A DNA stretch of 32,000 nucleotides from Fibrobacter succinogenes subsp. succinogenes S85. Lineage in GTDB: Bacteria > Fibrobacterota > Fibrobacteria > Fibrobacterales > Fibrobacteraceae. The stretch spans positions 360,001-392,000 of the forward strand of contig NC_017448.1 of NCBI RefSeq assembly GCF_000146505.1. The letters are read 5' to 3'. The notes beneath the pieces are model-generated. The model did no database searches and was not told the origin of the DNA. It saw nothing but the letters and a program-made list of their open reading frames with translations. Shown in pieces: positions 1 through 16,130 of this stretch. The position numbers and the translations under genes were made by a program. Within the stretch, counting starts at the first letter, position 1. The number at the start of each line of letters is the position of its first letter.

Positions 1-582
1 CAATAAAAAATCTTCGGCGCAAGTGGTATCCTTGATAAAATAGATATAGCGCACAGAATCCGAGGAATTAGAGAGTTTGGTTTTATAGCCTAGGAGAATT
101 TCGGAATAAAGCAAAGTCTTGTACAAATCTTTAGATTCCTGCTTAATGTCCGAAGAATCTACGCGGGCAATCAGCGAATCCGCAATAGGCTTGTCAAAAG
201 GCGAAAGATGTCTGTACAAATAGAGATTTAAGCCATCATTTTCCCTAAGGCGCAAATCAAATTTCTTCGTGTATGCAGAATCTAGAAACGCACGCCTGCC
301 ATCCGTATAAATCGCGATTGCATTTTCGAAACGCTTGAGTTCCATATCCACTAGATATTCCTCAAACAATTCCAGCGGAGCGCCTGCACTCACGTTTTCC
401 CTAAGGTAATCAAAAGCGGTCGCAGCGCGTTCATAATCTTCGTTTTTCAAGGATTCATGCAGCACTTCGCGAGCACGCAAGAACAGAGACTTCTTGGAAA
501 CCATCTGCGATTCTTGCGCCCAAAGACTAGCCGATGCAAGGCAAAGAAATATCAAGACGAACAAAGAACGCATTTTCACCAT
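1..582 (-). CDS. Partial CDS (N-terminal 194 aa; continues past the left edge). Secreted helical-repeat plus beta-barrel family protein, paralog of the next two genes.
   Basis: This ORF is not in the supplied track, so I translated it by hand. The minus frame is open from the ATG at 582 to position 1: MVKMRSLFVLIFLCLASASLWAQESQ... (signal peptide) then SLFLRAREVLHESLKNEDYERAATAFDYLRENVSAGAPLELFEEYLVDMELKRFENAIAIY. This aligns with ELYDRARDVLRKSLECRDYERAGEALDYLKTNVENGAPLSEMEEYLVNLELGRFEDALVFY of 583..1839. The ATG directly abuts the upstream TAA stop at 583..585. Confidence 0.75.
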   Translation of the reverse strand, partial: MVKMRSLFVLIFLCLASASLWAQESQMVSKKSLFLRAREVLHESLKNEDYERAATAFDYLRENVSAGAPLELFEEYLVDMELKRFENAIAIYTDGRRAFLDSAYTKKFDLRLRENDGLNLYLYRHLSPFDKPIADSLIARVDSSDIKQESKDLYKTLLYSEILLGYKTKLSNSSDSVRYIYFIKDTTCAEDFLL

Positions 583-1839
583 TTACCAGAGTTCCGCACC
601 AATACCAAAAGCAAAAGTATGTCTAACGGCGCTAAAGTCCTTGCCGTTGTTACAGCATTTTTCTTCAACAGAACCAATATGCATCATGTACTTAAAGCGC
701 AACAAGAACGAATGCGCATAAGCCCCCACAGACGATGGCTGAGCCGCATAAAAACGGAAGTCGACATTATTGCCCAACATAAATTCAGGAACAAGCGTTG
801 TACTTGCAAGATGATCATATCTCAGGCTAGACACACCGACAAAAGGTTCTACTCGCAAATATTTCGAATCGTAAGCAACAAACCCAAGACTTGCGCCAAC
901 CGCCCACGTTCCTTCACGTCCATAGATATTTATACCCCCCGAAGACATCTCCTTTACATCAACATCGCACTTTTTAAAATTATATCCGGTAATATAACCA
1001 AACGACCAGAACAAGCTCAAATCAAAGCGCTTCACACGGAAATCCAAGCCAAGCATAATGGGCGTATCCGATTCGTAATTCAGATAATCGCTCCCCTCGC
1101 CTGTCATAAAGCCAAAGCCCATGTACATATAAAATCCAAATCCACCCGTATAGTACTTTTGTCCCAAAGGATCCTGTTTGAACTGTTTTTGCTCTTCCAA
1201 ATACTTTTGGACCGGGCCAATAAACAAATCCTTCAAATACGCGGCATGATCCGAATAAGGATACTCCTCAACATACTTTTTGATCAAAGCGAGGAATTCC
1301 TCAAGAGAAGACAAATCTTCATTATAGTTCAAAACAACAACGTCGTCCCCTTCACCCACCGTAGAAGCGTGAGCAGCAACAAAGTCCAAATAAATGAGGG
1401 TCTTGTGCAAAAGTTTGTACTCTTGCCTTTCATCCGAAGCATCTATGCGCACACATAATGAATCAACAAATCGCTTATCCATTTTATTCGTTTGTATCAG
1501 ATAACGATTCAACAAATCTTCAACTTCAACACGGCTTACAGCAGGGCGCGTGTAGTTTTTATCAAAGATATCCCGGTGAATGTCTCCGTAGAAAACAAGA
1601 GCATCCTCAAATCGGCCCAATTCAAGATTCACCAAATACTCTTCCATTTCCGAAAGCGGAGCACCATTCTCCACATTCGTTTTCAAGTAGTCCAACGCTT
1701 CACCGGCACGTTCGTAGTCTCGGCACTCCAAAGACTTTCGAAGAACATCTCGAGCACGGTCATACAGTTCTTTTTTGGATGGCTGAGAGAAAGCCACGAC
1801 ACTAAGCAAAAGCAATGAAAGTAGAATTCGCATTTTCAT
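583..1839 (-). CDS. Secreted protein with an N-terminal helical (TPR-like) region and a C-terminal outer-membrane beta-barrel-like domain (family paralog 2).
   Basis: 418-aa ORF with signal peptide MKMRILLSLLLLSVVAFSQP. The C-terminal half has alternating hydrophobic/Gly-rich strands (GFGFYMYMGFGF, ASLGFVAYDSKYLRVEPFVGVSS, NNVDFRFY) and ends in an aromatic residue (...GIGAELW), as typical of OM barrels. It is a clear paralog of 1843..3141 and 1..582. Confidence 0.85.
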   Translation of the reverse strand: MKMRILLSLLLLSVVAFSQPSKKELYDRARDVLRKSLECRDYERAGEALDYLKTNVENGAPLSEMEEYLVNLELGRFEDALVFYGDIHRDIFDKNYTRPAVSRVEVEDLLNRYLIQTNKMDKRFVDSLCVRIDASDERQEYKLLHKTLIYLDFVAAHASTVGEGDDVVVLNYNEDLSSLEEFLALIKKYVEEYPYSDHAAYLKDLFIGPVQKYLEEQKQFKQDPLGQKYYTGGFGFYMYMGFGFMTGEGSDYLNYESDTPIMLGLDFRVKRFDLSLFWSFGYITGYNFKKCDVDVKEMSSGGINIYGREGTWAVGASLGFVAYDSKYLRVEPFVGVSSLRYDHLASTTLVPEFMLGNNVDFRFYAAQPSSVGAYAHSFLLRFKYMMHIGSVEEKCCNNGKDFSAVRHTFAFGIGAELW

Positions 1840-1842
1840 AAT

Positions 1843-3141
1843 TTACCACAAATAAATTCCAAGTCCAAGATTGAAGAAAAAGCTAGTCGTTTCGCCCTTA
1901 ACATACTTATGATCAAAATCAATATTTGAAAAACCAAGTTTGCCTACAAGAGAAAAACTGGAGAAAGCATGATCGGCATAAAAGAGGAAAGCCGTAATGA
2001 ACTTGAAATCCACATTCACAGCAGCAGTAAAAGTCATCGGGCCAGAATCATTGCCATAAGCCACCCATTCGTCATCTTTCGGGCGCATTTCCATAAACGA
2101 TTTACCCCAAGCGATATAGGGGCGCACCTTAAGATAACGGCTGTCAAACGCCACAAAGCCAAGCCCGACCTCATAAGTATGGCTACCCGTCATTCCATTA
2201 TTGACGAGTTCACCCAAAATGGCAAAGCGCTTTATTTGAGCATAGATTTCAATGTTTATAGGTAAATTTTCGACTTCAAAGCGTTCCCTGTTGTAAAAGT
2301 TCTTGGAACCAGAAGCTCCACCCAATGAGATAAAGAGAGCGTTCAAGCCAAAGCCGCCAGAATAGAGTTTTTCCTGAATGATATTCTCTTTTTGCTCCTT
2401 ACGCCTTTGCAACATGAATTCCACAGGATCCATCCTTGAAAGAGGCAAGTAAATGCAATTCTTTATCCACGGAACATCAGGATCATTCGAATAGTCAGCA
2501 ATAAGCGATTCCGCCAAATGCAAAACAATCGTTCCATACTTTTCGCTCTTGTACGCTTCAGGGAGCAAGAGCAACATTTTGAGCTTATCGCGTTTGCGCT
2601 TCGGAAGCTTTTTCAGGACTTCTTCATTCAATGAATAAAATTCATTTTTGAATTCAGTGCGTTCACGCAATCTCTGTTGAAGATATATTTCCAATCCGTC
2701 TTGAGATGCAAACACGACATTCTGTTCGTAACGGGACGTATCATAAACACCACGATAAAATTCTACTAAATAATCAAGCAGCTTATCGTACTTTTGGATT
2801 TCAATATAAATCACTTCCTTTTCAATAGAACTCAACGGAATGACCATGCGATTTTCCATTGTCGAGAGTGTATCCATAAGTTTCAAGACTTGGGAATAAT
2901 CCTTTTCCTTCAATGATTCAAGAAGGTTATCACGAGCTCTGTAAATCGGCTCCATATCTGAAGATTCTGCCATCAGGCTCTGTTCAAATTTGTCTAGGCT
3001 TGGTTGTTCAGATTCGGCCGAATTTTCGGCAGAACCGTTGAGCATCAGACTCTTTTCAAATTCGTCAAAATTTTTATTTATTGATGGCTGTGCAAACGAG
3101 GCTATAGAGCAAAGCAATATCAAAAGGAAGAATGGTTTCAT
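1843..3141 (-). CDS. Secreted protein with an N-terminal helical region and a C-terminal outer-membrane beta-barrel-like domain (family paralog 3).
   Basis: 432-aa ORF with signal peptide MKPFFLLILLCSIASFAQP. Shared family motifs are GFVAFDSRYLKVRPYIAWGKS and VNVDFKFI, and it ends ...GLGIYLW. Its stop lies 3 nt from the ATG of the next gene, and the junction sequence is conserved with the 582/583 junction (cgcattttca[c/t]a[a/t]tttacca). Confidence 0.85.
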   Translation of the reverse strand: MKPFFLLILLCSIASFAQPSINKNFDEFEKSLMLNGSAENSAESEQPSLDKFEQSLMAESSDMEPIYRARDNLLESLKEKDYSQVLKLMDTLSTMENRMVIPLSSIEKEVIYIEIQKYDKLLDYLVEFYRGVYDTSRYEQNVVFASQDGLEIYLQQRLRERTEFKNEFYSLNEEVLKKLPKRKRDKLKMLLLLPEAYKSEKYGTIVLHLAESLIADYSNDPDVPWIKNCIYLPLSRMDPVEFMLQRRKEQKENIIQEKLYSGGFGLNALFISLGGASGSKNFYNRERFEVENLPINIEIYAQIKRFAILGELVNNGMTGSHTYEVGLGFVAFDSRYLKVRPYIAWGKSFMEMRPKDDEWVAYGNDSGPMTFTAAVNVDFKFITAFLFYADHAFSSFSLVGKLGFSNIDFDHKYVKGETTSFFFNLGLGIYLW

Positions 3142-3149
3142 TTGTGAGC

Positions 3150-3488
3150 CTATTCCGGAAGATAGTACAGGTCAACAACAGACGCGGTAGAGCCATAATA
3201 CTCGCCTGTCTTTTTCACAAAAACAAAGTTTGCACCTTGTTTCCTGGCTACGCTTTTAAAAACTTCCTCGTTACCAAAAGCACTTCCTGTCAACAGAAGC
3301 GTATTCACATGTTCTGCTTTTTCAGGAATTATCGGGAGCAAAGATGCCGGTATAATGGCAACTTCAACAGATTCATCAAGCGGCGCTCGTCGCAAGGATT
3401 GCTGAGTCCCATTTTGATTTGAACCTGCACATCCCGCAAAAGACAATGCGAGCAATGCAATAGAAATTTTCTGCCCAACCAATCTCAT
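3150..3488 (-). CDS. Small lipoprotein of unknown function.
   Basis: 112-aa ORF with a signal peptide and lipobox (LALSFAGC AGS). It lies 8 nt upstream of paralog 3 on the same strand and is probably the first gene of that operon. Confidence 0.7.
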   Translation of the reverse strand: MRLVGQKISIALLALSFAGCAGSNQNGTQQSLRRAPLDESVEVAIIPASLLPIIPEKAEHVNTLLLTGSAFGNEEVFKSVARKQGANFVFVKKTGEYYGSTASVVDLYYLPE

Positions 3489-3594
3489 TTATCATCCTTC
3501 TCAAATTTATCAAGATAAATATACAAATTCACATCAGTCGGCAAGACAAACTCATTAAAAATTCAGTTCAAACAAACACAAACAACGTTTATTA

Positions 3595-6500
3595 TTATCT
3601 ATTGGAATCGGCCATGTATACATCGTTCCATTGATATGTATTCGATTTGAAAGATTTACTTAGCGAAGAGCCGTCAACAAGAGTTATGTCGCTTGATTTA
3701 GCCCTTTCTTTAGCATCTACTCCAAATTCACTATTGGTAAAAACAACAGGCTTAAAAACCTTTCCCGAATATTTTTCCTTGTAGACATTTGCGCCAACAG
3801 CCACTTCGCCCAAAGCTTCAACACCGACTTTGTTACGAGAATGTTTGCACTGAATAGCCAAATTGTCTTTGGAACCAAAAGCAAGCACATCGACGCCCTT
3901 ATCACCACTGCGCGGAGTAACAACAGTCTTATACCCTAATGCAGCATAGAAAACAGCCACAAACGCTTCGAACAGATATTCATTCATATCATCAATATCC
4001 TCGAGAGCAACATAGGATTGGTCGTCCGCCATGGTCGTACCAAAAAGTTTTCCATCAAGTTCCTTCTGAACCACTTCAATACGATCGGTAGGATACAATG
4101 ATGCAGACGCAAGGTGCGTTTTATTTTGTAGAAGAGCATCCAGCACAACATCAAACGAATCAAAGTTATCACACACAGCCATTGGGAAATGAACATAGAC
4201 GTCCTTGGTCTGCCCAATACGATAAACACGATCTGTCGCTTGCATTTCCTTCGCAGGATTCCAATGACGGGAATAATGAATCACATGGTTTGCACCCACC
4301 ACATTCAAGCCGACACCAGCAGCAAGTTGCGACATAATGATAACGTTGAAGCCGCTTTTTTCCTGGAAAATATCAACCGTTTTTTGGCGCGAGACTTTAT
4401 TGCCCCTGTCAGATGTCGATGTATCGCCGTTGATGACACTCGCCTCGATTCCAAACTTTTGGAGCAAAATACGCTGGAACATCCGTTGCATATCGCGACG
4501 GTCCGTGAAGATAATCACCTTTTCGTTTTTCGCCCGAATATCTTCAAGAATCCGCATCGTTGCAGACAACTTTGCAGAACTACGAATCAAGTCATCTACA
4601 GAAAGGTGGTCTACATCCTTAAAATCCAAATACGGATGGTCACTGATTTTTCTCAAGCTCTGAATGCGTTCAAACGGATGGGCGTGAGTCTTTATTCCCA
4701 AGTTAATTGCGGCAACATAGCGGCTGTATTGTTCAGAAGGCATGGGAACTTTGTGATACTCCACATGTTTTTCGGGCAAGTCCTTACTCACTTCAGACTT
4801 AATGCGGCGAAGGAAGTAGCCACCCAATTCATGCCTCAACTTGTTTCCCAACATGGCGATATCGGTTTCAGCATCTTTGAGCGGGTCTTGGTACTTTCGG
4901 GCAAATTCCTTAGCGTTTCCAAGCAATCCCGGTACTGCAAAATCCATAATGCACCACAAATCCATGTAGGTATTTTCAACAGGAGTACCCGTCATTGAAA
5001 TGCGCAAATCGCTTTTCAATGCTTTCGCTGCATTCGTCACCATAGCACCAGGGGCCTTCACTTTTTGCGCTTCGTCCAACACAATTACCGCAAAATCAAT
5101 CGCAGCAAGAGTAAACTGTCCACGGCGCATAGCCTCATACCCCACAACCATGATATGCTTATAGGCATGAAATGCAACAAAGCCCTTATTTTCATTAGGA
5201 ATGCGCTCTACAATTTCAATATTCATTCCTTCTTTAAAGAATCGCTTGTATTCACGAACCCAGTTTTCAAGCAAAGACACCGGAGCAACAATGAGATACG
5301 GTTTATTCGCAGCATTATTAAATCGAGAATGCCAATCGAGCATGTAAAGCACTTGAAGGGTTTTTCCAAGCCCCATATCATCGGCCAAAAGCCCGCCTTT
5401 TGCATTTTTAGCCAAATTCTGCAACCACGCAATACCTTCAACCTGATGGTCTTTTAGCTTGAATTCTTTTTGAAGATAAGGATTTTCTTCCAACGTAAGA
5501 TGCTTTGGCAAATAATTCTGTTCCTTGGTGACATCGTAACCAGTCACTTCCAGATTTTCTTCAATCAGAAGCACTTCGTGCTGTTTCTTTTTCTCTTCAA
5601 TAGAATTCGGGCCTGTCGCGGTAACAGCTTCTTTTTTACGAAGCTGTTCTTTAGCAAACTTTTCCATTTTCTCGGCTTCACCGATGGAAATATTCGCGCC
5701 CTTGTATTCGCAATATGGTTTATTTTCTCGCTTTGCCGTAGCTATAGCTTCGCTAAATTCAGCGAGTTCCGTTGCATTCTTTATGGCGATTTTCGTTGTA
5801 CCATTCGTACGGTCTTCAACTTCGAAAGAAGGAATCCACTGCGATTTATAAGGCGTAATAAACGGATAGACTTTCGGTTCATACAAGCCCTTTCCTATCA
5901 CTCGGTCGCTATAAAAAGCAGACAAATCAGTCACTTCGGGATCAAAGAATTCTTCCGGATGTTCTACAATGGCCTTGATTTCTTCTGGATTTTTGACTTT
6001 GCGTTTTTGCTTGACTTTCTTGAGCGATTCCTGAACCGGAGTATCCAAGACAACAATAGTCTTCTGTACCCCTTTTGCCATCGGATAATGGTCATGGACT
6101 TCCGAACTGCCATCAAACTTTTTAACAAATTCATCATTTGATGAATCATCAATGGAGGGAGTAATTTCAAGTTCACCATTGTTATAAGAAATGTCAAGCC
6201 GAACATTCTTTGGCAAAACGACATTTCTGTTATTTAAAGTTTCGTCAAGCGCCGAAGCAGATTCTTTAGACAGCTCCTTGATTTCGGCAAAGCTCTTGTA
6301 AGACTCCAATTTACTTTTAGACTGCAATCCATTAAATTCAGCCAACGCTTTTACAAGGCGATATTGTTCTAGAGTCAGCAGATATTCAATCTGTTCACCT
6401 TTGACTATCAACGAAACGACAGGTCCTTTCTGCTCTTTTTTAGGAAGTTCATCGCCACACGGAGCAAAAGACTTGTAAGAGACCTCATAGGTGAATGCGG

Positions 6501-6732
6501 GCGTAAAGGGAATTCCCTGATGGGAAACAAGAATTTCAAACGGATAGAGTGGCGGAAGCCCCACAATTTCGCGTTCAAATTCATTTAGCTCATAGACATT
6601 TTCAAAGGGAACATCTATACCGCCATCCGCAAGTAGCGTGGCAAAACCATTATCCGTCAACGTCTTCAAAAAAGGAGCGTTGGTATTATCAAAGACAAAA
6701 CTTGTTTCCGTAATTTTGATACTATCTAACAT
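3595..6732 (-). CDS. zorD: ZorD-like SNF2-family helicase/ATPase with a C-terminal Mrr-like (PD-(D/E)xK) restriction endonuclease domain.
   Basis: 1045-aa ORF. SNF2 motifs: LADDMGLGKTLQ (motif I, K457), VLDEAQKVK (motif II), MTGTPVEN (motif III), and in helicase-C VIIFTDRRDMQ, GVGLN and QATDRVYRIGQTKDV (motif VI). The C-terminus carries GDKGVDVLAFGSKDNLAIQCKHS, which matches the Mrr_cat D...QxK signature. It is the last gene of the zorA-zorB-X operon, and its start overlaps the upstream stop by 11 nt. Confidence 0.9.
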   Translation of the reverse strand: MLDSIKITETSFVFDNTNAPFLKTLTDNGFATLLADGGIDVPFENVYELNEFEREIVGLPPLYPFEILVSHQGIPFTPAFTYEVSYKSFAPCGDELPKKEQKGPVVSLIVKGEQIEYLLTLEQYRLVKALAEFNGLQSKSKLESYKSFAEIKELSKESASALDETLNNRNVVLPKNVRLDISYNNGELEITPSIDDSSNDEFVKKFDGSSEVHDHYPMAKGVQKTIVVLDTPVQESLKKVKQKRKVKNPEEIKAIVEHPEEFFDPEVTDLSAFYSDRVIGKGLYEPKVYPFITPYKSQWIPSFEVEDRTNGTTKIAIKNATELAEFSEAIATAKRENKPYCEYKGANISIGEAEKMEKFAKEQLRKKEAVTATGPNSIEEKKKQHEVLLIEENLEVTGYDVTKEQNYLPKHLTLEENPYLQKEFKLKDHQVEGIAWLQNLAKNAKGGLLADDMGLGKTLQVLYMLDWHSRFNNAANKPYLIVAPVSLLENWVREYKRFFKEGMNIEIVERIPNENKGFVAFHAYKHIMVVGYEAMRRGQFTLAAIDFAVIVLDEAQKVKAPGAMVTNAAKALKSDLRISMTGTPVENTYMDLWCIMDFAVPGLLGNAKEFARKYQDPLKDAETDIAMLGNKLRHELGGYFLRRIKSEVSKDLPEKHVEYHKVPMPSEQYSRYVAAINLGIKTHAHPFERIQSLRKISDHPYLDFKDVDHLSVDDLIRSSAKLSATMRILEDIRAKNEKVIIFTDRRDMQRMFQRILLQKFGIEASVINGDTSTSDRGNKVSRQKTVDIFQEKSGFNVIIMSQLAAGVGLNVVGANHVIHYSRHWNPAKEMQATDRVYRIGQTKDVYVHFPMAVCDNFDSFDVVLDALLQNKTHLASASLYPTDRIEVVQKELDGKLFGTTMADDQSYVALEDIDDMNEYLFEAFVAVFYAALGYKTVVTPRSGDKGVDVLAFGSKDNLAIQCKHSRNKVGVEALGEVAVGANVYKEKYSGKVFKPVVFTNSEFGVDAKERAKSSDITLVDGSSLSKSFKSNTYQWNDVYMADSNR

Positions 6733-8089
6733 ATCGTTTCATCCACATAAGAAGAGGATATTCCCAGTTACTCGATTTATGGACCATTCTGCAACTGTAA
6801 GCGTAAGAAGTATCCATATTCGGAAGATAAGGCTTTTTCAAATCATTTACCGAATATATGCGATTAGCACCCAGGAGTTGGTCCACATTTTCATCATTTC
6901 GGTAGATGTACAAGGCATTTCCCTTTTCCGAAAATTCAATAAACTTGTACGAACCAATGGTCATTACAAACGCATACGCACTGGTCTGCGACGCAGTAAC
7001 CTTAAAGCAGTAATCCAAGGAATCCTTCAACGATTCAATTCGCGACAAGCGCCTCTTGCCATCTGCGGGTCCAATGACTTTAACATCCGAAATAGTCTTA
7101 GTCAACTGTAACCAAAATTCTTTACGCCGCGGGTCAACGATCAACGTTTGGAAAATTTCGTTGATATATTCTTGAATCAGCCAAAAATTCACGATTTGCC
7201 GTGCATTTTCAACTTTTTTCTGCAACTCGGAATCTCTCTTATCAAATAGAGTCCATTTGCCTTTATCGGCCGGATGACCAATCCGACGCAATGCCATAGA
7301 CTGTAATTTCAATTGATCGCGTTTTACCGAGCGTTCTTCACAACCCCTTATAAAATCAGAAAGAACAATCATGCTCGTATCAGAGTTGCCATGTTCTTCA
7401 AGCACGTTATCAAGAGACTGCGGAATCCCTTTCCCGACATCCGCTGTATAGAAAGTACGAATGACTTTCTGGAAATATTCTGAATGGATCATATCCTTGG
7501 GAAAGTCGATAACTGACTTAAAATCCAAAGGAGATTCATAACCCATTCTCAAATTTTTCCCAAGATTTACAGCACCATTTAATACTCTCGTGTTCCCCGC
7601 TTTAAAATAATCCAGTTTTTCTTTCCACTCGTTGTAACGGGATTGAGGACCTTTATAAGCTTTCAACTTTTTCAGAAAAAGATCATGCATTGGAGCAATT
7701 TCATCCGATACACTATTCCATTTGTTAAGGCAAACTCTCATCAAAGGAGCCAAATAGCGATCACCCCAGCCAGTATTAATTATCGTTGCAATTTTTTCAT
7801 AAGTCACGGGTCCACCGACAATATCCCCCGCAAAATAGCACATCAGACGGCGTTCCCGAATAGAGAATGGATCCTGTTCTGGGGTATTACGAAAATACGC
7901 TACAATTTTACGCCTTATCGCAAGAACCGCACTTTCTGAAATCTCAGTTTCTTCGACAACATCAAGTTTTGCAACAAGCGCCTCCATTTTTTGAAGGTGC
8001 TCATTCAAGAGAACTTCTAACTTAGCAGGAAAAACATTCTTCGCTCTTTTTACAAAAGCTTTCTTGTCGAAATCAGGGAGATTGATCAT
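6722..8089 (-). CDS. zorC: ZorC-position protein (candidate EH-signature-domain protein). I recognise no motif by eye.
   Basis: 455-aa ORF with no TM segment or signal peptide. It lies between the MotB-like gene and the SNF2 gene, which is the position ZorC occupies in type I Zorya. It starts 10 nt after the zorB stop and overlaps zorD by 11 nt. The assignment rests on synteny only. Confidence 0.6.
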   Translation of the reverse strand: MINLPDFDKKAFVKRAKNVFPAKLEVLLNEHLQKMEALVAKLDVVEETEISESAVLAIRRKIVAYFRNTPEQDPFSIRERRLMCYFAGDIVGGPVTYEKIATIINTGWGDRYLAPLMRVCLNKWNSVSDEIAPMHDLFLKKLKAYKGPQSRYNEWKEKLDYFKAGNTRVLNGAVNLGKNLRMGYESPLDFKSVIDFPKDMIHSEYFQKVIRTFYTADVGKGIPQSLDNVLEEHGNSDTSMIVLSDFIRGCEERSVKRDQLKLQSMALRRIGHPADKGKWTLFDKRDSELQKKVENARQIVNFWLIQEYINEIFQTLIVDPRRKEFWLQLTKTISDVKVIGPADGKRRLSRIESLKDSLDYCFKVTASQTSAYAFVMTIGSYKFIEFSEKGNALYIYRNDENVDQLLGANRIYSVNDLKKPYLPNMDTSYAYSCRMVHKSSNWEYPLLMWMKRYVR

Positions 8090-8099
8090 CAGAAAGTTC

Positions 8100-8831
8100 T
8101 CACTTTAAAGTTTTAATAATTTCTTCAATCTGTTCCTGAGCCTTGGTCCTGACTCTGATTTCAACACGTCTCGATTTTTCTTGTGTCGCTCTAGGCTGAC
8201 TAAAAGAAAGCCCCGTTGCAATAATATATTTTCTCGCAAATTCCAAAAGTGTGGTATCTTTGGAAACATCCGTTTCTGTAAGTCCATATCTTAGCACATT
8301 TCGGCTACGAGCTTGCGACAAGTTCATATTGTACAGATAATTGCGTTCAAGAGTTTTGCACAAGCTGTAGCAGGGAGTTGAATCCGTATGTCCTTCAATA
8401 CGAATTTCCTCAATATGCTCACGGAATTTTTCGCCATCCAAAATTTCAAGATACTTTGGAAAGAAAAACTTCATCATCGATTTATACCGAGGCGGGAGCA
8501 AGGTATCCCCCGAAGCAAACAGGACCGGAGTTCCATCCAACGCAATTTCATTGAAACGAACGGTCAAAGTTGCAGAATCCAATTCTGCACCCCACACATT
8601 CAAAGAATCTTTAAACGTAGATTTCAATTCCTTGTATATTTCGTCTCTTGTATCCTGATACTTGTTAATGGCCTGTTTTTTAATATTGTCCTGTTTTGTA
8701 ATCTGCCAAACAAGGGCGATAATCAAAAGAACAAAGACAAACATCAAACCAGACATCATGTCACCTGTAGACATCGCAAACGGATTTTGGTCACCGCCTG
8801 CATCTAAAGTTATTTTATGACGTCTAGCCAT
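8100..8831 (-). CDS. zorB: ZorB-like MotB/OmpA-family peptidoglycan-binding stator subunit.
   Basis: 243-aa ORF. It has a conserved Asp just before a single TM (MSTGDMMSGLMFVFVLLIIALVW, D24), analogous to the proton-carrying Asp of MotB/ExbD/TolR. The C-terminal OmpA-like motifs are IRIEGHTDSTP, LSQARSRNVLRYGL and SRRVEIRV. Its start shares one nucleotide with the zorA stop (TAATG overlap at 8831). Confidence 0.85.
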   Translation of the reverse strand: MARRHKITLDAGGDQNPFAMSTGDMMSGLMFVFVLLIIALVWQITKQDNIKKQAINKYQDTRDEIYKELKSTFKDSLNVWGAELDSATLTVRFNEIALDGTPVLFASGDTLLPPRYKSMMKFFFPKYLEILDGEKFREHIEEIRIEGHTDSTPCYSLCKTLERNYLYNMNLSQARSRNVLRYGLTETDVSKDTTLLEFARKYIIATGLSFSQPRATQEKSRRVEIRVRTKAQEQIEEIIKTLK

Positions 8832-10585
8832 TACTTTCTTGCTCCATTCAGCACATTCGGGAGTTTTTCCAAAGTATCACTCAATTCCCCATAAGTATTT
8901 GAAAGACTTTCAGAAACCTTGGTCACATTCTGCGTGTAGGCATCCAAAAATTCTTTAGTCCGCTTCGCAACAGTTTCAGAATACTGATTCAGGCCATCAC
9001 TCAGTTCCTTGAAGATACCTTCTAGCGACTCGCTAATTTCCGAGAATTCCTGAGCATATTGCGCAGAAACTTCCTTCGAGTGGTCCAGCGATTCTTCAAT
9101 TTGCTTGAAAGTATGATCCGTTTCTTCGATGGATTTCTTATAAGTCTGCACCAAATTATCTTGCGATTGTTGCAATGACGTAGCAGAATTTTCAACATGA
9201 CCAGAAGCAGATTCCAATTTGCTAGCCGCAGATTCCACAGTCTTATGCAATCGTTCAAATTTTGTAAGCAAGGCTGCAGTTTCTTTCAGAGTTGCTGTCG
9301 ATGCATTTGCCTGCTTTTCAAATTCCTGCATAAGAGCCACAGACTTGTCATTCATCTGAGACTGCTTTTCAACCAAATTTGCACCCACTTGAGCCGTTTG
9401 TGCATTAGCGGCAGAAATCTGTTCGCTCATCTGCCCCACATTATTTTGAATATTCTCTGTCAGTTTTTGGAGGATTTCAGGCAAAGTTGACATCGTATCG
9501 GATGCGTTATCCAATTGACGCCCAAGAATTTCAAGTCTTTCGGTAGTTGCATTTGACACAGAATTCTTAAGTTCATCAATCATTTCCATGATGCTCCTGC
9601 GCAAGTCATCACCAATGCTACTTGCCATCGATGCCGCAGGGCTCTGAATTGCCTTGGTCAGTTCATCCAATTTTTGCATCAAAGGTTCAAGAGCGCTTTC
9701 TCTCAACCCATCGCTCAAGCGGTCATAGAATTCTTCAAGCACACCTTCAATCATGGATTTCTGTTCGGCGCAGGATTTCATCACAGCATTCAGCATATTG
9801 CCCGAAGTTACCGTATTGCCATTGCCATCGATCGCGGTAAAGTTTTTGGTCATTTCAGCCGCAACAAACTTTATCTGAGAATCCATAGACTTGTTCATTT
9901 CAGAAACAAGGCCCTTGACAAGATAGGACATATCCTTCTTTTGACGTTCCTGAATAATAGTCTGTTTTTCAAGTTCCGAGATATAGTACACTTCATCAAG
10001 CTTGTCCGATATAGTGACACACTTTTTAGTCAAAATATTCAAGCTATATTTTTCAGCCAAGGTATAAATCGTAGAAAGAAGCATACCAGCCACAGAAGTG
10101 ACAAAAGCGGTTTTCATACCCGCAATCAAGCCTCCAACACCTTTGATTAATTGGTCAGGATTGTCTTTTATCTGAGTCAAATCAATATCACCAAGACCAA
10201 TCGTAAGGCCAATGAATGTTCCCAGAACACCAATACCGACAAGGATGCCAGCAGCAGCGCCCATTGCATTGACATTAATTTTAGCAGCTGTCAGAATGGC
10301 TCCCAAATTGAAATAGTCCGATGCAAATTCCGATGTTTTAAGCGAATCATCTCGGTCCTTAAAACAAATCGTTCTTTTATACTCTTTAGAGATAAACCTC
10401 GTCACCAAATAGGGCTTTTCAAGGTATTCCAGCAAATTCGGTCGATTGGCAACATTCCCTATTTGAGAGATGGTAATCTTGCATATTTTAATAACTTTCC
10501 AAATATAGTAGACAAATATGATAAACAAGAAAATCAGAACAACGAGGGTGCATGTATCACCCATAATTTTTCCAATGAAATTCAT
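8831..10585 (-). CDS. zorA: ZorA-like MotA/ExbB/TolQ-family ion-channel subunit with a long C-terminal coiled-coil tail.
   Basis: 584-aa ORF with TM1 (TLVVLIFLFIIFVYYIW). A MotA_ExbB-type helix pair follows (MGAAAGILVGIGVLGTFIGLTIGL ... GLIAGMKTAFVTSVAGMLLSTIYTLAEKY). The remaining roughly 400 aa are heptad-like, Ser/Glu/Gln/Leu/Lys-rich helical sequence with no other recognisable domain. Confidence 0.85.
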   Translation of the reverse strand: MNFIGKIMGDTCTLVVLIFLFIIFVYYIWKVIKICKITISQIGNVANRPNLLEYLEKPYLVTRFISKEYKRTICFKDRDDSLKTSEFASDYFNLGAILTAAKINVNAMGAAAGILVGIGVLGTFIGLTIGLGDIDLTQIKDNPDQLIKGVGGLIAGMKTAFVTSVAGMLLSTIYTLAEKYSLNILTKKCVTISDKLDEVYYISELEKQTIIQERQKKDMSYLVKGLVSEMNKSMDSQIKFVAAEMTKNFTAIDGNGNTVTSGNMLNAVMKSCAEQKSMIEGVLEEFYDRLSDGLRESALEPLMQKLDELTKAIQSPAASMASSIGDDLRRSIMEMIDELKNSVSNATTERLEILGRQLDNASDTMSTLPEILQKLTENIQNNVGQMSEQISAANAQTAQVGANLVEKQSQMNDKSVALMQEFEKQANASTATLKETAALLTKFERLHKTVESAASKLESASGHVENSATSLQQSQDNLVQTYKKSIEETDHTFKQIEESLDHSKEVSAQYAQEFSEISESLEGIFKELSDGLNQYSETVAKRTKEFLDAYTQNVTKVSESLSNTYGELSDTLEKLPNVLNGARK

Positions 10586-10634
10586 AGAAGAAAGCCTCTA
10601 CTAATAGCAATTATTTTTACTAATAATAATTTTT

Positions 10635-11159
10635 TTACTCGCAATCCAAGCAAGTCCATTCGACAACGCCGTCGCCATGGCCATCAAAACGTTCACGAGT
10701 GTACTTTTCAATATCAATAAGGAATCCAATATCGCCCGCATTTTCGGTACAACAACCATCGCAGTCGCTATCGGAACACATATCATAAACTACGGCGTCA
10801 ATCGTGGAGCCGTTCATGCGGAGTCTAAAAGTTTTGAGCTTATACTGTTTCCAGTCCTTTTCGTGAACGGCAATGATGTTGTGCTGGCTCACCCATTCTT
10901 CGGTCATTTGACCTTCAACACCGGCAAAGTAGCCAGCCCATGTGCAGCCATTGTACTCGATGCATTCTTCGCTGTCGGGTTCCGGCCAAGACGTGTACCA
11001 TGTGAGATTTGCCTGATGCCAAACGGTATCCGCGACGGTTTCGCTCGAAGACGAAGGCGCGCTCGCCGAAGATGAGGAGTCCGGAAGGACCGTTGAATTA
11101 TCCGTTGTACAAGCCACAAATGCACCTGAGGCGCAAGCAACAGCGAATGCAAAAAACAT
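10635..11159 (-). CDS. Secreted or lipid-anchored Cys-rich protein, possibly with a double-psi beta-barrel (barwin/expansin/GH45-like) fold.
   Basis: 174-aa ORF with hydrophobic N-terminus MFFAFAVACASGAFVAC, a Ser-rich linker (SSSSASAPSSSSE), then NLTWYTSW...CIEYNGCTWAGYF...IDAVVYDMCSDSDCDGCCTENAGDIGFLIDIEKYTRERF. This resembles the x-T-x-Y ... V-x-D-x-C ... D-L/I-s pattern of DPBB proteins. The fold call is weak. Confidence 0.55.
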   Translation of the reverse strand: MFFAFAVACASGAFVACTTDNSTVLPDSSSSASAPSSSSETVADTVWHQANLTWYTSWPEPDSEECIEYNGCTWAGYFAGVEGQMTEEWVSQHNIIAVHEKDWKQYKLKTFRLRMNGSTIDAVVYDMCSDSDCDGCCTENAGDIGFLIDIEKYTRERFDGHGDGVVEWTCLDCE

Positions 11160-11198
11160 ACTTCATAAAAAATTTCATCAAAAAAGAACCTTTAACTT

Positions 11199-11870
11199 TT
11201 AATCCATAATCGCTATACCGAGGCTTATCGCGAATATGTGATTGATATAGTAGTTTTCGTGTTTGACATCGCGGTATTTATCGGAGAATGACCCAAATTC
11301 CGCAATATACTTAAGACGAAGCATAAGTCCCAAATTAAAACCGATTTCACCCGCATTAATATAGCCCGAATCAAAGCGAAAATCTACGTTTCCTCCCATA
11401 ATAAACGTAGAGAAATCCATATCATCATTACCATTATTGAAGATATTTCCACCAAAACCAATAAAGGGCTGTAATTCCACATAACGTGAATTGAAGACCG
11501 CATAACCTAAAGTAAGCCCAAGAGATTCGTCTGTTTCTTCATGACTGCGGTCATATTCAGTAAAGCAAACACCATCGTAGAGGTAAGGTAAACTATGTAT
11601 CAGTCCCCAACCATAGTAAAAGCCTACCGCCACTCGCGATAGCTGCAATTCGAAATCAATAATGAACGGGAACCCCATCCTCACATCAAGATACTTATTC
11701 ACATCACCCGTAGTAGTACCAACCCACGAGCCAAAGAATAAAGCGATATCGATCCAATAGCTCCGTTCGTCATCGGAACTTTTCCCGGATGTGCCGACTG
11801 GTTCTGCCCACAGGCAGGTCGATGCAAGCAGTAGAATGGCCAGCAGACTTTTAAATTTGTTCAGAATCAT
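11199..11870 (-). CDS. Outer-membrane beta-barrel-like protein, a barrel-only member of the same family as 583..1839 and 1843..3141.
   Basis: The likely start is the internal Met at 11870 (MILNKFKSLLAILLLASTCLWAEP signal peptide). The track start at 11903 would run through the terminator hairpin. Family motifs are LGLTLGYAVFNSRYVELQPFIGFGGN and GGNVDFRF. Confidence 0.75.
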   Translation of the reverse strand: MILNKFKSLLAILLLASTCLWAEPVGTSGKSSDDERSYWIDIALFFGSWVGTTTGDVNKYLDVRMGFPFIIDFELQLSRVAVGFYYGWGLIHSLPYLYDGVCFTEYDRSHEETDESLGLTLGYAVFNSRYVELQPFIGFGGNIFNNGNDDMDFSTFIMGGNVDFRFDSGYINAGEIGFNLGLMLRLKYIAEFGSFSDKYRDVKHENYYINHIFAISLGIAIMD

Positions 11871-14277: not shown

Positions 14278-15849
14278 TTATCGTACATTTACTATTTGCT
14301 GCTGAGCACCTACACGGAGCAAATAAGATCCGCTACGTGGCACTTGCATCGAGAAATTCGGAACACTTGCACGACTGCTGTAAATCACACGGCCCTGCAT
14401 ATCAAGCAAATTAATGTCGCTTCCAATTTTAGCGCCCGAAATCTGGAGATTGCGGCCATTCACAAAAGCGGAGAATTTTGCAATAGGAGTTGTCTTTTCC
14501 AAACCCATGCCCGGATTAAACTTTGTCCAAACTCTAGATTTGCAGACAAATACAGTTTTCAAATCCGTAACATAATAAGTCATGTTTTCACGCTTGGCAG
14601 TGCAACTCGGCATATCTTCTTCGGTGCCCACAGCTTCAACAACGATATCCGGGATAATGCTAGAGCTGGATACAGCCTTTGAACTAGACGATGTTGATTT
14701 TTTGCTGCTAGAAGAAGAAGCCTTGGCAGAAGAACTGGAACCAGATTTTGCGCTACTAGAAGATGCCGGTTTTGCAGAAGAACTCGATGCAGCCTTCGCA
14801 CTACTTGAAGACGCAGGCTTAGCACTGCTCGAAGAAGCCTTAACGCTGCTAGACGATACAGCCTTTGCGCTAGAGCTAGAAGCCGGCTTGACAGAAGAAC
14901 TAGAAGCAGGTTTCGAGCTGCTCGAGGATTCCACCTTGACGCTACTAGATGATGCAGGAGCAACGCTAGAGCTAGAGGGAGTTGCGCTAGATGACGACGA
15001 AGTCACTGAGGAACTAGAAACCACGACACTCGAGCTAGACAGTGCAACACTAGAACTTGAGAGAATATTGCTAGAACTAAACTGCGCAACGCTAGACGAA
15101 GAAGGCGTTTCAGAAGAACTAGAAAGCTCAACGCTAGAACTCGAGGCAAGCGTTTCACTGCTTGACGAAACTACTTCCACACTTGAGGAGGACAGATCGG
15201 CGGACTCTGCAACAAACGTAGCGCTCACTTCAACATCAAAATTCGGCATATCGAAAGCACAACTTCCTTCGACAGCAGTGCTACCCATTCCCCACATTCC
15301 TGGATTCGTTACATTACCAGGTTCAACAGTCGTGCAAGGCACAATTGTTTTAGAATCTAGGGAACGGTTCACGCTAACCGAGGCCACTTTGTAACCACTT
15401 GCCGGATTCGGGTTCACAGTCACCTTTACACCCGGTTTGGTACGATCACGATAACGGTCACTAAACGAAAGCGTCACATTTCCGTTATCTGTATTTTTTA
15501 CAGTAAGGTAATAGCGCAAGGATTCAAAAGAAGCCGAAACAAAAACATCATGATCCGGCATTAAAAATTTTGATTCGCTTTTTTCAACAGTAGAAACTTT
15601 TCGTTGATTGTAAGCATCACCGTATTCATCGTAAACAGTAAAGCCCACAAAAACTTTTCCATCAGGAATGATTGGAGCTACATCAAGCCAGGATCCCGCA
15701 GGTGCTTCACCAACAACAGCTTGGTTTAGCATGACGTTAAACGATTTTTCTTCATCGTTTCCGACTTTGTTGATTTTATAATTTTGAGCATAAGCGCTCA
15801 TGGCGAACGCAAGCGTCGCCCCCATTCCAAGGCAGATTTTTTTCCTCAT
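14278..15849 (-). CDS. Secreted protein with two beta-rich repeat domains, a roughly 180-aa Ser-rich linker and a C-terminal sorting-domain-like beta-sandwich (T9SS CTD-like).
   Basis: The likely start is at 15849 (MRKKICLGMGATLAFAMSAYAQ signal peptide). Two internal repeats end in F-x-MP-x-x-DV-x-VSA-x-F. The linker is SSSSAKPASSSSAKAASSSS-type. The C-terminus is NLQISGAKIGSDINLLDMQGRVIYSSRASVPNFSMQVPRSGSYLLRVGAQQQIVNVR, which resembles Por secretion tail domains. Confidence 0.8.
   Translation of the reverse strand: MRKKICLGMGATLAFAMSAYAQNYKINKVGNDEEKSFNVMLNQAVVGEAPAGSWLDVAPIIPDGKVFVGFTVYDEYGDAYNQRKVSTVEKSESKFLMPDHDVFVSASFESLRYYLTVKNTDNGNVTLSFSDRYRDRTKPGVKVTVNPNPASGYKVASVSVNRSLDSKTIVPCTTVEPGNVTNPGMWGMGSTAVEGSCAFDMPNFDVEVSATFVAESADLSSSSVEVVSSSSETLASSSSVELSSSSETPSSSSVAQFSSSNILSSSSVALSSSSVVVSSSSVTSSSSSATPSSSSVAPASSSSVKVESSSSSKPASSSSVKPASSSSAKAVSSSSVKASSSSAKPASSSSAKAASSSSAKPASSSSAKSGSSSSAKASSSSSKKSTSSSSKAVSSSSIIPDIVVEAVGTEEDMPSCTAKRENMTYYVTDLKTVFVCKSRVWTKFNPGMGLEKTTPIAKFSAFVNGRNLQISGAKIGSDINLLDMQGRVIYSSRASVPNFSMQVPRSGSYLLRVGAQQQIVNVR
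14659..15201 (-). repeat. Low-complexity Ser-rich coding repeat (degenerate tandem SSSS-A/V-K-P/A-A units).
   Basis: Covers residues about 235-415 of the ORF. The DNA shows repeated gctgct/agaaga/gaaga-type units, and the complement gives a spurious L/E-rich 270-aa ORF. Confidence 0.8.
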
Positions 15850-16130
15850 ACAAATCCCTAACTTTTGTATTCTCAAATTTAGTATAAGTTTTTTCATGTG
15901 CAATATATCACAATTAACGAAATATTACAAATAAGGAATTTATATGCAAATAAACATTGAAAAAATTTCAAAAAACACATTTCTGAAATATTGAGAAATT
16001 CAGAACACCACAAATTAGGTAAACAAACCATTACAGTCTTTTTAATAGATTCACCATATTCCATTTTAGTCCGTAAAAAAACGCTTTTATTTTTTGATAT
16101 ATTTCTACCGAATTTAAGCCAATAGAATAT

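What the first reader, a model, noticed from the sequence alone, without database searches (positions are those of the whole stretch)
3595..10585. Zorya type I-like anti-phage operon: MotA-like with long tail, MotB/OmpA-like, unknown protein, SNF2-Mrr
Seen in sequence: four co-directional minus-strand genes are packed with translational coupling. There is a TAATG overlap at 8831, a 10-nt gap at 8090..8099 and an 11-nt overlap at 6722..6732. Gene 1 has a MotA/ExbB-type TM core followed by about 400 aa of coiled-coil-like sequence. Gene 2 has the pre-TM Asp (D24) and an OmpA-like peptidoglycan-binding C-terminus. Gene 3 is a 455-aa soluble protein with no motif I recognise. Gene 4 has all SNF2 helicase motifs plus a C-terminal Mrr-type D...QxK nuclease motif. 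Established knowledge: this gene order and domain content define Zorya type I (ZorA, ZorB, ZorC with an EH-signature domain, ZorD SNF2-type helicase/nuclease), a membrane-anchored proton-channel-like defence system. Inference: this is a functional Zorya-family locus in a lineage where no flagellar, Tol or TonB partner genes are adjacent. Its component sizes differ from what I recall for the E. coli prototype: ZorA 584 aa versus roughly 700 or more, and ZorC 455 aa versus roughly 550. It may therefore be a divergent subtype.
Basis: partly seen in the sequence, partly recalled or inferred. Interest (0 to 1): 0.9.

Follow-up and report, generated by a model that had tools for sequence, protein, structure and literature searches.

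The report
Type I Zorya anti-phage gene cassette
This is a complete four-gene Zorya type I anti-phage system (zorABCD) inserted as a strain-specific 7.1-kb cassette in the rumen bacterium Fibrobacter succinogenes S85, so it is a well-known kind of defence system, in a common compact form that differs from the E. coli version studied experimentally.

Summary
The interpretation, Zorya type I, is supported. All four proteins match type I Zorya models best. ZorC carries an EH_Signature domain, and its predicted fold matches only E. coli ZorC in the PDB. The ZorA ion-filter residues, the ZorB Asp and the ZorD Walker A, DEAQ and Mrr motifs are intact.

The window is Fibrobacter succinogenes S85. A related strain has the two flanking genes 17 nt apart, an empty site. 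zorABCD is therefore a self-contained insertion of about 7.1 kb, at 41% GC against 49% for the rest of the window. The flanking unknown genes are a Fibrobacter-specific outer-membrane protein family that does not travel with Zorya elsewhere.

The "divergent subtype" idea is only partly right. The small sizes mark a widespread architecture class of type I: ZorD with an Mrr domain, ZorC without a C-terminal globular domain, and a shorter ZorA. In 43 dereplicated related loci the ZorD Mrr domain and the ZorC C-terminal domain never co-occur.

Verdict: a new member of a known kind that standard tools would detect. Interest is modest, about 0.3. Function is inferred; nothing was tested experimentally.

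The parts
8831..10585 (-). zorA (584 aa): MotA/ExbB-like membrane motor subunit (aa 1-~202) followed by a cytoplasmic helical tail of about 380 aa (aa ~203-584, window 8834-9979)
   Evidence: PADLOC ZorA1 1.7e-31. Best PDB match is Shewanella type I ZorA 8vvn_C, 1.5e-23 over aa 64-559. A PF28082 ZorA-like_t1 hit is precomputed for this protein. The E. coli ion-filter residues T147 and S184 align to T123 and S164, which are invariant in relatives.
8100..8831 (-). zorB (243 aa): single-TM stator subunit with the essential Asp (D24, codon 8760-8762) and an OmpA-like peptidoglycan-binding domain (aa ~104-232)
   Evidence: PADLOC ZorB1 6.6e-63 and ZorB2 1.3e-59. Pfam OmpA 30.9 bits against a cut-off of 27.2. 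PDB 8vvi_A 1.3e-27. D24 and the N168..L171-S172..R175 motif are invariant in relatives.
6722..8089 (-). zorC (455 aa): EH-signature protein, core domain only. It ends 18 aa after the signature His and has no C-terminal linker or globular domain
   Evidence: Pfam EH_Signature 3e-17. E385, H437, D319, R322, W326 and W449 correspond to E. coli E400, H443, D332, R335, W339 and W458 (PMC11946911). AF2 model pLDDT 83.8. The only significant fold match is 8r68 E. coli ZorC. An HMM of the C-terminal domain finds nothing in the six-frame window.
3595..6732 (-). zorD (1045 aa): N-terminal domain, SNF2 ATPase (aa 429-840; K457, DEAQ 553-556) and a C-terminal Mrr-type PD-(D/E)xK nuclease domain (aa 913-1026, window 3655-3996; D948, Q961, K963)
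   Evidence: PADLOC ZorD1 PDLC00631, 1387.7 bits over the full length. Pfam SNF2-rel_dom, Helicase_C and Mrr_cat. E. coli ZorD 8qy7_A matches at 1.7e-110 but aligns only to aa 266-883, so the E. coli protein has no Mrr domain.
10586..10634 (-). 49-nt AT-rich spacer between the stop of the native upstream gene (u180) and the zorA start. This is the upstream edge of the inserted cassette
   Evidence: Sequence compared with the empty site in L016.
3489..3594 (-). 106-nt spacer between the zorD stop and the native downstream gene (d112). This is the downstream edge of the cassette. Its last ~20 nt (AAATTTGAGAAGG...) match the empty-site spacer
10635..11177 (-). u180, a native lipoprotein-like gene flanking the insertion. 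It is not part of Zorya
   Evidence: In Fibrobacter sp. UWB12 (L016) the homologue (81% identity) is followed 17 nt later by the d112 homologue, with no Zorya between them.
583..3488 (-). d112, d432 and d418: a native small lipoprotein and paralogous outer-membrane proteins flanking the insertion. They are not part of Zorya. A fourth paralogue, d419, runs off the left end of the window
   Evidence: Paralogy. Present without Zorya in other strains. Absent next to Zorya in other taxa. The d418 model is a helical domain plus an 8-strand beta-barrel.

Best explanation
Window 3489-10634 is a self-contained, horizontally acquired zorABCD cassette, a type I Zorya anti-phage system. It sits in an accessory locus between proS and hisI of Fibrobacter succinogenes S85.

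The likely mechanism is inferred by homology to the E. coli, Shewanella and Serratia systems. Five ZorA and two ZorB subunits would form a proton-driven inner-membrane motor. Phage perturbation of the envelope would let the ZorB OmpA-like domain grip peptidoglycan. Ion flow through ZorB D24 and ZorA T123/S164 would then turn ZorA and its cytoplasmic tail, which I estimate at about 50 nm. That would recruit or activate ZorC (EH-signature DNA binder) and ZorD (SNF2 ATPase) to destroy incoming phage DNA near the membrane.

This locus belongs to a compact architecture class. ZorD carries a canonical Mrr PD-(D/E)xK nuclease domain that E. coli ZorD lacks. ZorC lacks the C-terminal globular domain that E. 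coli ZorC needs. The ZorA tail is about 25% shorter. In this class DNA cleavage is most likely done by the Mrr domain.

Shown here: gene content, motifs, homology, fold, cassette boundaries and architecture statistics. Inferred: stoichiometry, trigger, nuclease assignment and anti-phage activity.
For: - Family assignment. PADLOC type I models hit all four proteins. Pfam finds EH_Signature, SNF2-rel_dom, Helicase_C, Mrr_cat and OmpA. NCBIfam best hits are all Zorya families. The best PDB sequence matches are Zorya chains 8vvn, 8vvi, 8r68 and 8qy7.
- ZorC fold. The only significant PDB fold match is 8r68.
- Functional residues. E. coli ZorA T147, S184, P163, D217 and Y220 align to T123, S164, P143, D197 and Y200. 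ZorB D24 is conserved. All six ZorC EH-network residues are invariant. ZorD K457, DEAQ 553, D948 and K963 are intact.
- Operon. The three junctions indicate translational coupling.
- Synteny. zorABCD is conserved in 5 genomes of Fibrobacter, Bacteroidales, Melioribacteraceae and a Senegalimassilia MAG, and in most of the 80 metagenome loci whose contigs reach far enough upstream.
- Cassette. The empty site in L016 has u180 and d112 17 nt apart. GC is 40.8% against 49.3%. Only 1 of the 8 proS contexts shown carries Zorya.
- Architecture class. In 43 dereplicated loci the counts are Mrr+/ZorC-C-terminal-domain- 29, Mrr-/C-terminal+ 9, neither 5, both 0. Median ZorA length is 517 against 662 aa.
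- Mechanism. Taken from PMC11946911 and PMC11890865.
Against: - No experiment exists on this locus or on any Fibrobacter Zorya.
- All four proteins score far below NCBIfam's curated equivalog cut-offs: ZorA 82 against 100, ZorB2 128 against 400, ZorC 40 against 490, ZorD 514 against 1500. Equivalence with the E. coli proteins is therefore not established.
- Pfam MotA_ExbB did not hit ZorA at E<=0.01 in the local Pfam copy.
- ZorC lacks the C-terminal domain, and ZorA is shorter than some E. coli truncation mutants. Both kinds of change abolish defence in E. coli. The E. coli mechanism therefore cannot be transferred unchanged.
- No promoter or terminator specific to the cassette was found, so expression may depend on read-through from u223/u180.
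- ZorB resembles type II ZorB more than type I ZorB.
Confidence: 0.87

Rival explanations
1. The unit is a larger ten-gene envelope module. In this reading zorABCD works together with the co-directional flanking genes, with u223, u180, d112, d432, d418 and d419 acting as outer-membrane sensors or partners of the ZorAB motor.
For: All ten genes are co-directional and closely spaced, and all have low GC. The flanking proteins carry signal peptides or lipoboxes. d418 is predicted to be an outer-membrane beta-barrel with a periplasmic helical domain. Zorya is thought to sense envelope perturbation (PMC11946911).
Against: In Fibrobacter sp. UWB12 the homologues of u180, d112, d432, d418 and d419 (81-91% identity) sit in the same order with no Zorya, and u180 and d112 are 17 nt apart. 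Other strains carry arrays of the paralogues without Zorya. None of the five related Zorya loci, including two Fibrobacter MAGs, has a homologue of any flanking gene within 10 kb.
Confidence: 0.04
2. The locus is a housekeeping MotAB, ExbBD or TolQR-type stator pair that happens to lie next to an unrelated SNF2/Mrr restriction-like enzyme.
For: The ZorA motor core and ZorB belong to the MotAB/ExbBD superfamily. ZorD alone also hits DpdE, DrmD and BrxH models.
Against: Zorya models far outscore MotB models for ZorB (128 against 27.7 bits or less). ZorA has the Zorya-specific long tail, which aligns to Shewanella ZorA over aa 64-559. An EH_Signature gene sits between the two pairs. The four genes move together as one cassette and stay syntenic across phyla. 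No Dpd, DISARM or BREX partner genes are in the window.
Confidence: 0.02
3. The cassette is a genuine type I Zorya relic that is no longer functional or is not expressed in S85.
For: No dedicated promoter or terminator was detected. The cassette interrupts a probable native transcription unit. ZorC lacks a domain that is essential in E. coli.
Against: All four ORFs are intact, with coupled junctions and every catalytic or signature residue preserved. Identical or >=90%-identical copies recur in many independent assemblies. The short ZorC form is the majority form among relatives, at 109 of 149, so it is not a truncation.
Confidence: 0.07

Closest known systems
E. coli type I Zorya (EcZorI, NCTC 9026; PDB 8qyd ZorAB, 8r68 ZorC, 8qy7 ZorD; Hu et al. 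2024, PMC11946911)
   Same: The gene order zorABCD is the same. ZorA has the motor with the T/S ion filter plus a long helical tail. ZorB has the essential Asp and an OmpA-like peptidoglycan-binding domain. ZorC has the EH core with the same six-residue electrostatic network. ZorD has the SNF2 ATPase with a DEAQ box.
   Different: ZorA is 584 aa against 729, so the tail is about 380 aa against about 507. ZorC is 455 aa against 560 and lacks the linker and C-terminal globular domain required for DNA binding and defence in E. coli. ZorD has a C-terminal Mrr nuclease domain that E. coli ZorD lacks, and a shorter N-terminal domain. Sequence identity is low: E-values against the PDB chains are 1e-5 for ZorA, 2e-8 for ZorB and 2e-3 for ZorC.
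Shewanella sp. ANA-3 type I ZorAB (PDB 8vvn; Mariano et al. 2025, PMC11890865)
   Same: This is the closest solved ZorA, at 1.5e-23, and the alignment extends through the tail (aa 64-559).
   Different: Shewanella ZorA is 696 aa. Its ZorB is only a distant match to the ZorB here (3.9e-8).
Sulfuricurvum kujiense type II ZorAB (PDB 8vvi)
   Same: This is the closest solved ZorB, at 1.3e-27 over nearly the full length. The NCBIfam ZorB2 model also outscores ZorB1.
   Different: Type II systems pair ZorAB with ZorE (an HNH nickase) and have a much shorter ZorA (378 aa). This locus has ZorC and ZorD and no ZorE.
Compact Mrr-bearing type I Zorya loci in Fibrobacter MAGs, Bacteroidales bacterium F22 and many metagenomes (L008-L010, L020-L052 and others)
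   Same: The architecture is the same: ZorA 504-628 aa, ZorC 455-505 aa without a C-terminal domain, and ZorD about 1045-1140 aa with Mrr. The PADLOC ZorD1 model PDLC00631 matches over its full length.
   Different: ZorD identity is 40-73% for all but two loci; L020 and L021 are near-identical copies at 97% and 87%. Many of the more distant loci have the order zorB-zorA-zorC-zorD, whereas this locus has the canonical zorABCD.

Membership tests
Zorya type I | ZorA: a MotA/ExbB-like three-TM motor subunit with a long C-terminal cytoplasmic helical tail | tested here: met
   PADLOC ZorA1 1.7e-31. PDB 8vvn_C 1.5e-23 over aa 64-559. PF28082 ZorA-like_t1 is precomputed for this protein. T123 and S164 align to E. 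coli T147 and S184. The Pfam MotA_ExbB model itself did not hit.
Zorya type I | ZorB: a single TM helix with the conserved Asp, plus an OmpA-like peptidoglycan-binding domain | tested here: met
   D24 is invariant. PADLOC ZorB1 6.6e-63. Pfam OmpA is above its cut-off. PDB ZorB chains match.
Zorya type I | ZorC: an EH_Signature domain with the Glu/His motif | tested here: met
   PF15611 scores 63.5 bits against 27.5. E385 and H437, plus D319, R322, W326 and W449, are invariant. The fold matches 8r68 only.
Zorya type I | ZorD: an SNF2-family ATPase, with a Mrr-like nuclease domain as in the original description | tested here: met
   PADLOC ZorD1 scores 1387.7 bits over the full length. Pfam finds SNF2-rel_dom, Helicase_C and Mrr_cat. 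K457, DEAQ 553, D948 and K963 are present. The Mrr-like domain is cited from Doron 2018 in PMC11890865.
Zorya type I | Four genes on one strand in the order zorA-zorB-zorC-zorD, tightly linked | tested here: met
   The four genes move as one cassette.
Zorya type I | ZorA5:ZorB2 rotary complex | not testable with these tools
   No multimer prediction or experiment is available.
Zorya type I | Protection against phage infection | not testable with these tools
   No experimental data were found for this locus.
E. coli-type ZorI (NCBIfam equivalogs ZorA1, ZorB1, ZorC, ZorD) | Scores above the curated equivalog cut-offs | tested here: not met
   ZorA1 42 against 750, ZorB1 60 against 400, ZorC 40 against 490, ZorD 514 against 1500. 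The proteins are homologous but not equivalogs.
E. coli-type ZorI (NCBIfam equivalogs ZorA1, ZorB1, ZorC, ZorD) | ZorC with a long linker and a C-terminal globular domain, which is required for DNA binding and defence in E. coli | tested here: not met
   ZorC ends 18 aa after H437. An HMM of the C-terminal domain of long relatives finds nothing in the six-frame window. Whether that domain is homologous to the E. coli one could not be shown.
Zorya type II / type III | ZorE (HNH) for type II, or ZorF and ZorG (DUF3348, DUF2894) for type III, next to zorAB | tested here: not met
   No such genes are in the window. ZorB alone resembles type II ZorB.
MotAB / ExbBD / TolQR housekeeping stators | Best match to MotA_ExbB and MotB, ExbD or TolR models, with flagellar, Ton or Tol partner genes nearby | tested here: not met
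   PF01618 gave no hit at E<=0.01. The best MotB-type NCBIfam score is 27.7 bits or less, against 128 for ZorB2. No partner genes are in the window.
Dpd / DISARM / BREX (which share SNF2-like helicases with ZorD) | Other core genes of those systems adjacent | tested here: not met
   Only ZorD gives secondary hits to DpdE, DrmD and BrxH. No other PADLOC hits occur in the window.

The most novel reading that the evidence does not exclude
The Mrr-bearing, compact form of type I Zorya found here may be a mechanistically distinct subclass. It combines a short ZorA tail, a ZorC without its C-terminal domain and a ZorD with a PD-(D/E)xK nuclease. In this reading the ZorD Mrr domain takes over the role played in E. 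coli-type systems by the ZorC C-terminal domain and/or the unusual nuclease activity of the Snf2 domain, and ZorA tail length co-evolves with effector architecture. The strict mutual exclusion of the two C-terminal domains in 43 dereplicated loci is the lead.
Probability: 0.3. Interest if true: 0.5.

Novelty: new member of a known kind. Interest (0 to 1): 0.3.

Why it matters
Zorya is one of the most widespread and mechanistically unusual defence systems, coupling a membrane rotary motor to cytoplasmic nucleases. This locus adds little to that picture by itself, because PADLOC-type tools would call it. Two things are useful.

First, the empty-site comparison shows that zorABCD alone is the transferable unit. 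It gives exact boundaries for cloning (3489-10634).

Second, the locus represents a common natural architecture that contradicts a simple transfer of the E. coli results. ZorC has no C-terminal domain, the ZorA tail is shorter, and ZorD has a dedicated Mrr nuclease. It would therefore be a good comparator for asking which features of Zorya are universal.

It is also, as far as the searched literature shows, the first defence system pinpointed in the cellulolytic rumen bacterium F. succinogenes S85, for which phages are barely known.

Tried and rejected
- A megablast of the locus against E. coli genomes gave no match.
- No tRNA genes, no Rfam families and no terminal direct or inverted repeats at the cassette ends were found. 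There is no integrase or transposase nearby. The insertion mechanism therefore stays unknown. A possible 5-bp AAATT duplication at the junctions is too AT-rich to be meaningful.
- The sigma-70 promoter and terminator scans gave nothing specific at the cassette edges.
- The flanking ORFs have no Pfam, PADLOC or NCBIfam families. The idea that they are Zorya partners was rejected by the empty site and by their absence next to Zorya in other taxa.
- A profile search for ZorC in the word-indexed database found no proteins beyond the first nine.
- The diverse ZorC alignment A5 was too divergent to seed a metagenome scan. A ZorD alignment was used instead.
- Attempts to show that the C-terminal domain of long ZorC relatives is homologous to the E. 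coli ZorC C-terminal domain failed. Both the single sequence and the profile align only the EH core. The domain has no Pfam family.
- Literature searches for the locus tags, and for Zorya or phage defence in Fibrobacter, found nothing specific.

Full report
**Observation**

I read the three junctions directly from the sequence. There is a TAATG stop/start overlap at 8831, a 10-nt spacer at 8090-8099 and an 11-nt overlap at 6722-6732.

**Identity of the four genes**

- PADLOC models of type I Zorya are the best hits for all four proteins: ZorA1 1.7e-31, ZorB1 6.6e-63 (ZorB2 1.3e-59), ZorC1 6.8e-21 and ZorD1 at 1387.7 bits over the whole length.
- Pfam finds OmpA in gene 2, EH_Signature in gene 3 (63.5 bits against a cut-off of 27.5), and SNF2-rel_dom, Helicase_C and Mrr_cat in gene 4.
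- The local Pfam copy gave no MotA_ExbB hit for gene 1. A precomputed PF28082 ZorA-like_t1 hit is on record for this exact protein.
- Against the PDB, the best sequence matches are Zorya chains. ZorA matches Shewanella type I ZorA 8vvn (1.5e-23, aa 64-559). ZorB matches Sulfuricurvum type II ZorB 8vvi (1.3e-27). ZorC matches E. coli ZorC 8r68 (1.6e-3). ZorD matches E. coli ZorD 8qy7 (1.7e-110). The chains were identified from PMC11890865.
- NCBIfam's best hits are also all Zorya families, but every score is far below the curated equivalog cut-offs. MotB-type models reach at most 27.7 bits, against 128 for ZorB2. The pair therefore does not group with housekeeping stators.

**Functional residues**

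The functional sites come from the E. coli work (PMC11946911).
- The ZorA ion-filter residues T147 and S184 align to T123 and S164. P163, D217 and Y220 align to P143, D197 and Y200. T123 and S164 are invariant in relatives.
- ZorB D24 corresponds to E. coli D26. It and the peptidoglycan-binding motif are invariant.
- In ZorC, E385 and H437 correspond to E. coli E400 and H443. The network residues D319, R322, W326 and W449 correspond to D332, R335, W339 and W458. All are invariant in the subfamily.
- An AlphaFold2 model of ZorC (pLDDT 83.8) has a single significant PDB fold match, E. coli ZorC 8r68 (E=4.6e-7, probability 1.00, 435 aligned columns, TM 0.43-0.48).
It is not met, so the Zorya reading stands.

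**Organism and context**

- The exact ZorC sequence maps to Fibrobacter succinogenes S85 (CP001792.1) and to many assemblies of the same lineage.
- Public names are partial. UniRef calls the protein "Zorya protein ZorC EH domain-containing protein". RefSeq calls ZorA "hypothetical protein".
- In the genome the co-directional cluster has ten genes. Two unknown genes lie upstream (u223, u180) and four downstream (d112, d432, d418, d419).
- d432, d418 and d419 are paralogues, and u223 matches their C-terminal half. None has a Pfam, PADLOC or NCBIfam family. Homologues appear only in Fibrobacter or in unnamed metagenome proteins.
- A model of d418 (pLDDT 86.8) shows a helical domain followed by an eight-stranded beta-barrel. 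The barrel resembles OpcA, OprG, OmpA, NspA, Ail and OmpW. These are envelope proteins.

**Are the flanking genes part of the system? No.**

- I looked up the neighbouring proS product and found other Fibrobacter strains with the identical ProRS. These strains have no Zorya between proS and hisI.
- In Fibrobacter sp. UWB12 (L016) the homologues of u180 (81%), d112 (89%), d432 (91%), d418 (83%) and d419 (84%) lie in the same order, and u180 and d112 are separated by only 17 nt.
- Comparing that empty site (...gcgaaTAAAATTTGAGAAGGAAAAAATG) with the S85 junctions places the insertion between the u180 stop (10635) and the d112 start (3488). The inserted cassette is about 7.1 kb and holds exactly zorABCD.
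- Its GC content is 40.8% against 49.3% for the housekeeping part of the window. In other genomes related cassettes are 10-15 points below their flanks.
- The five related genomic loci were found with ZorD: two Fibrobacter MAGs, Bacteroidales bacterium F22, a Melioribacteraceae MAG and a Senegalimassilia MAG. All keep zorABCD synteny, and none has any homologue of the S85 flanking genes.
- No integrase, tRNA gene, terminal repeat or Rfam element marks the cassette.
- No other defence genes are in the window. The system is solitary and is not part of a defence island.

**Is it a divergent subtype?**

The sizes do differ from the E. coli system (ZorA 729, ZorC 560, ZorD 1080 aa), and three architectural differences are real.
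- E. coli ZorD aligns only to aa 266-883 of this ZorD. The C-terminal Mrr domain is therefore extra here. A Mrr-like domain was, however, part of the original description of ZorD.
- ZorC ends 18 residues after the signature His. It lacks the linker and C-terminal globular domain that E. coli ZorC needs for DNA binding and defence.
- The ZorA tail is about 380 aa against about 507 aa.

These differences are not rare. An exhaustive profile search with ZorC found 988 cluster representatives at E<=1e-3. Among the best 149, 109 are 440-500 aa long and 34 are over 570 aa, the latter carrying a linker and a C-terminal domain of about 90 aa. An HMM of that domain finds nothing in the six-frame translation of the window.

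A metagenome scan with a ZorD alignment gave 80 more loci, which I annotated with my own HMMs. Among 43 dereplicated loci (ZorD under 80% identical) with a complete ZorC, the counts are as follows.

| ZorD Mrr domain | ZorC C-terminal domain | Loci | Median ZorA length (range) |
|---|---|---|---|
| present | absent | 29 | 517 aa (504-628) |
| absent | present | 9 | 662 aa (650-701) |
| absent | absent | 5 | 665 aa (592-869) |
| present | present | 0 | - |

The association gives Fisher p = 3.6e-6, without phylogenetic correction. The S85 locus is a typical member of the Mrr-bearing compact class. It is a variant architecture within type I, not a new type. PADLOC's existing ZorD1 model PDLC00631 covers it end to end.

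I could not show that the C-terminal domain of the long relatives is homologous to the E. coli one. Only the EH core aligns. The comparison with E. coli on this point is therefore positional.

**Mechanism**

The mechanism is inferred by homology. ZorA5B2 would form a proton-driven motor in the inner membrane. Envelope perturbation by a phage would let the ZorB OmpA-like domain anchor to peptidoglycan. Ion flow past D24 and the T123/S164 filter would then rotate ZorA and its tail, and ZorC and ZorD would be recruited to degrade incoming DNA locally (PMC11946911, PMC11890865).

In this class I consider the Mrr PD-(D/E)xK domain the most likely nuclease. The ZorC core alone must suffice for whatever ZorC does. 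These two points, the stoichiometry, the trigger and the anti-phage activity itself are untested.

Expression may depend on read-through, for two reasons. The cassette sits between two genes that are 17 nt apart in the empty site, and no promoter or terminator signals were found at its edges.

**Verdict**

The finding is an ordinary, detectable instance of a well-characterised defence family in a little-studied host. Its exact mobile-unit boundaries and its membership of the Mrr-bearing compact class add some value. Novelty: a new member of a known kind. Interest: about 0.3.

Noticed in passing
window 1-3488 and 10635-11869 (u223, u180, d112, d432, d418; d419 in L001 17508-18767): Secreted proteins flank the Zorya cassette on both sides. 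They include a Fibrobacter-specific paralogue family of about 420 aa with a periplasmic helical domain and a C-terminal 8-stranded outer-membrane beta-barrel, u223 (barrel only), and small lipoproteins. The array between proS and hisI varies in copy number and content between strains. Its function is unknown.
   Followed up: partly
L027-L038, L040, L042, L045, L046, L048-L050, L052, L054, L056, L059, L061, L071-L073: Many metagenomic relatives of this Zorya have the gene order zorB-zorA-zorC-zorD, with a ZorA of about 504-522 aa (591 aa in L046). This accounts for 15 of 47 dereplicated loci. Published surveys filter for the canonical zorABCD order (PMC11946911 methods).
   Followed up: no
related loci L007-L011 and L020-L099: In 43 dereplicated loci the Mrr domain on ZorD and the C-terminal globular domain on ZorC never co-occur (29, 9, 5 and 0). 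ZorA is about 145 aa shorter in the Mrr class. The test is not corrected for phylogeny. The ZorC C-terminal domain has no Pfam family.
   Followed up: partly
L007 (CAVJTH010000004.1, Senegalimassilia sp. MAG): The closest genome-collection relative (ZorD 73%, ZorB 74%, ZorC 54% identity) lies at the end of a contig binned as Senegalimassilia, a monoderm actinobacterium. The cassette has 46% GC and its flank 56%. This is either recent transfer into a monoderm, where Zorya is said to be under-represented, or a binning error.
   Followed up: no
window 8100-8831 (zorB): This ZorB is more similar to type II ZorB than to type I ZorB. The PDB matches are 8vvi 1.3e-27 against 8qyd 1.9e-8, and NCBIfam gives ZorB2 128 bits against ZorB1 60 bits. 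ZorA and the effectors are type I. This fits modular exchange of ZorAB between types.
   Followed up: no
window 14278-15903 (p523): This is a secreted protein of about 523 aa. It has a weak Flg_new_2 (InlB B-repeat-like) hit and a low-complexity region of about 200 aa made of Ser-rich repeats (SSSS-x-K/A-P/A). Its length differs between strains, from 480 to 669 aa.
   Followed up: no
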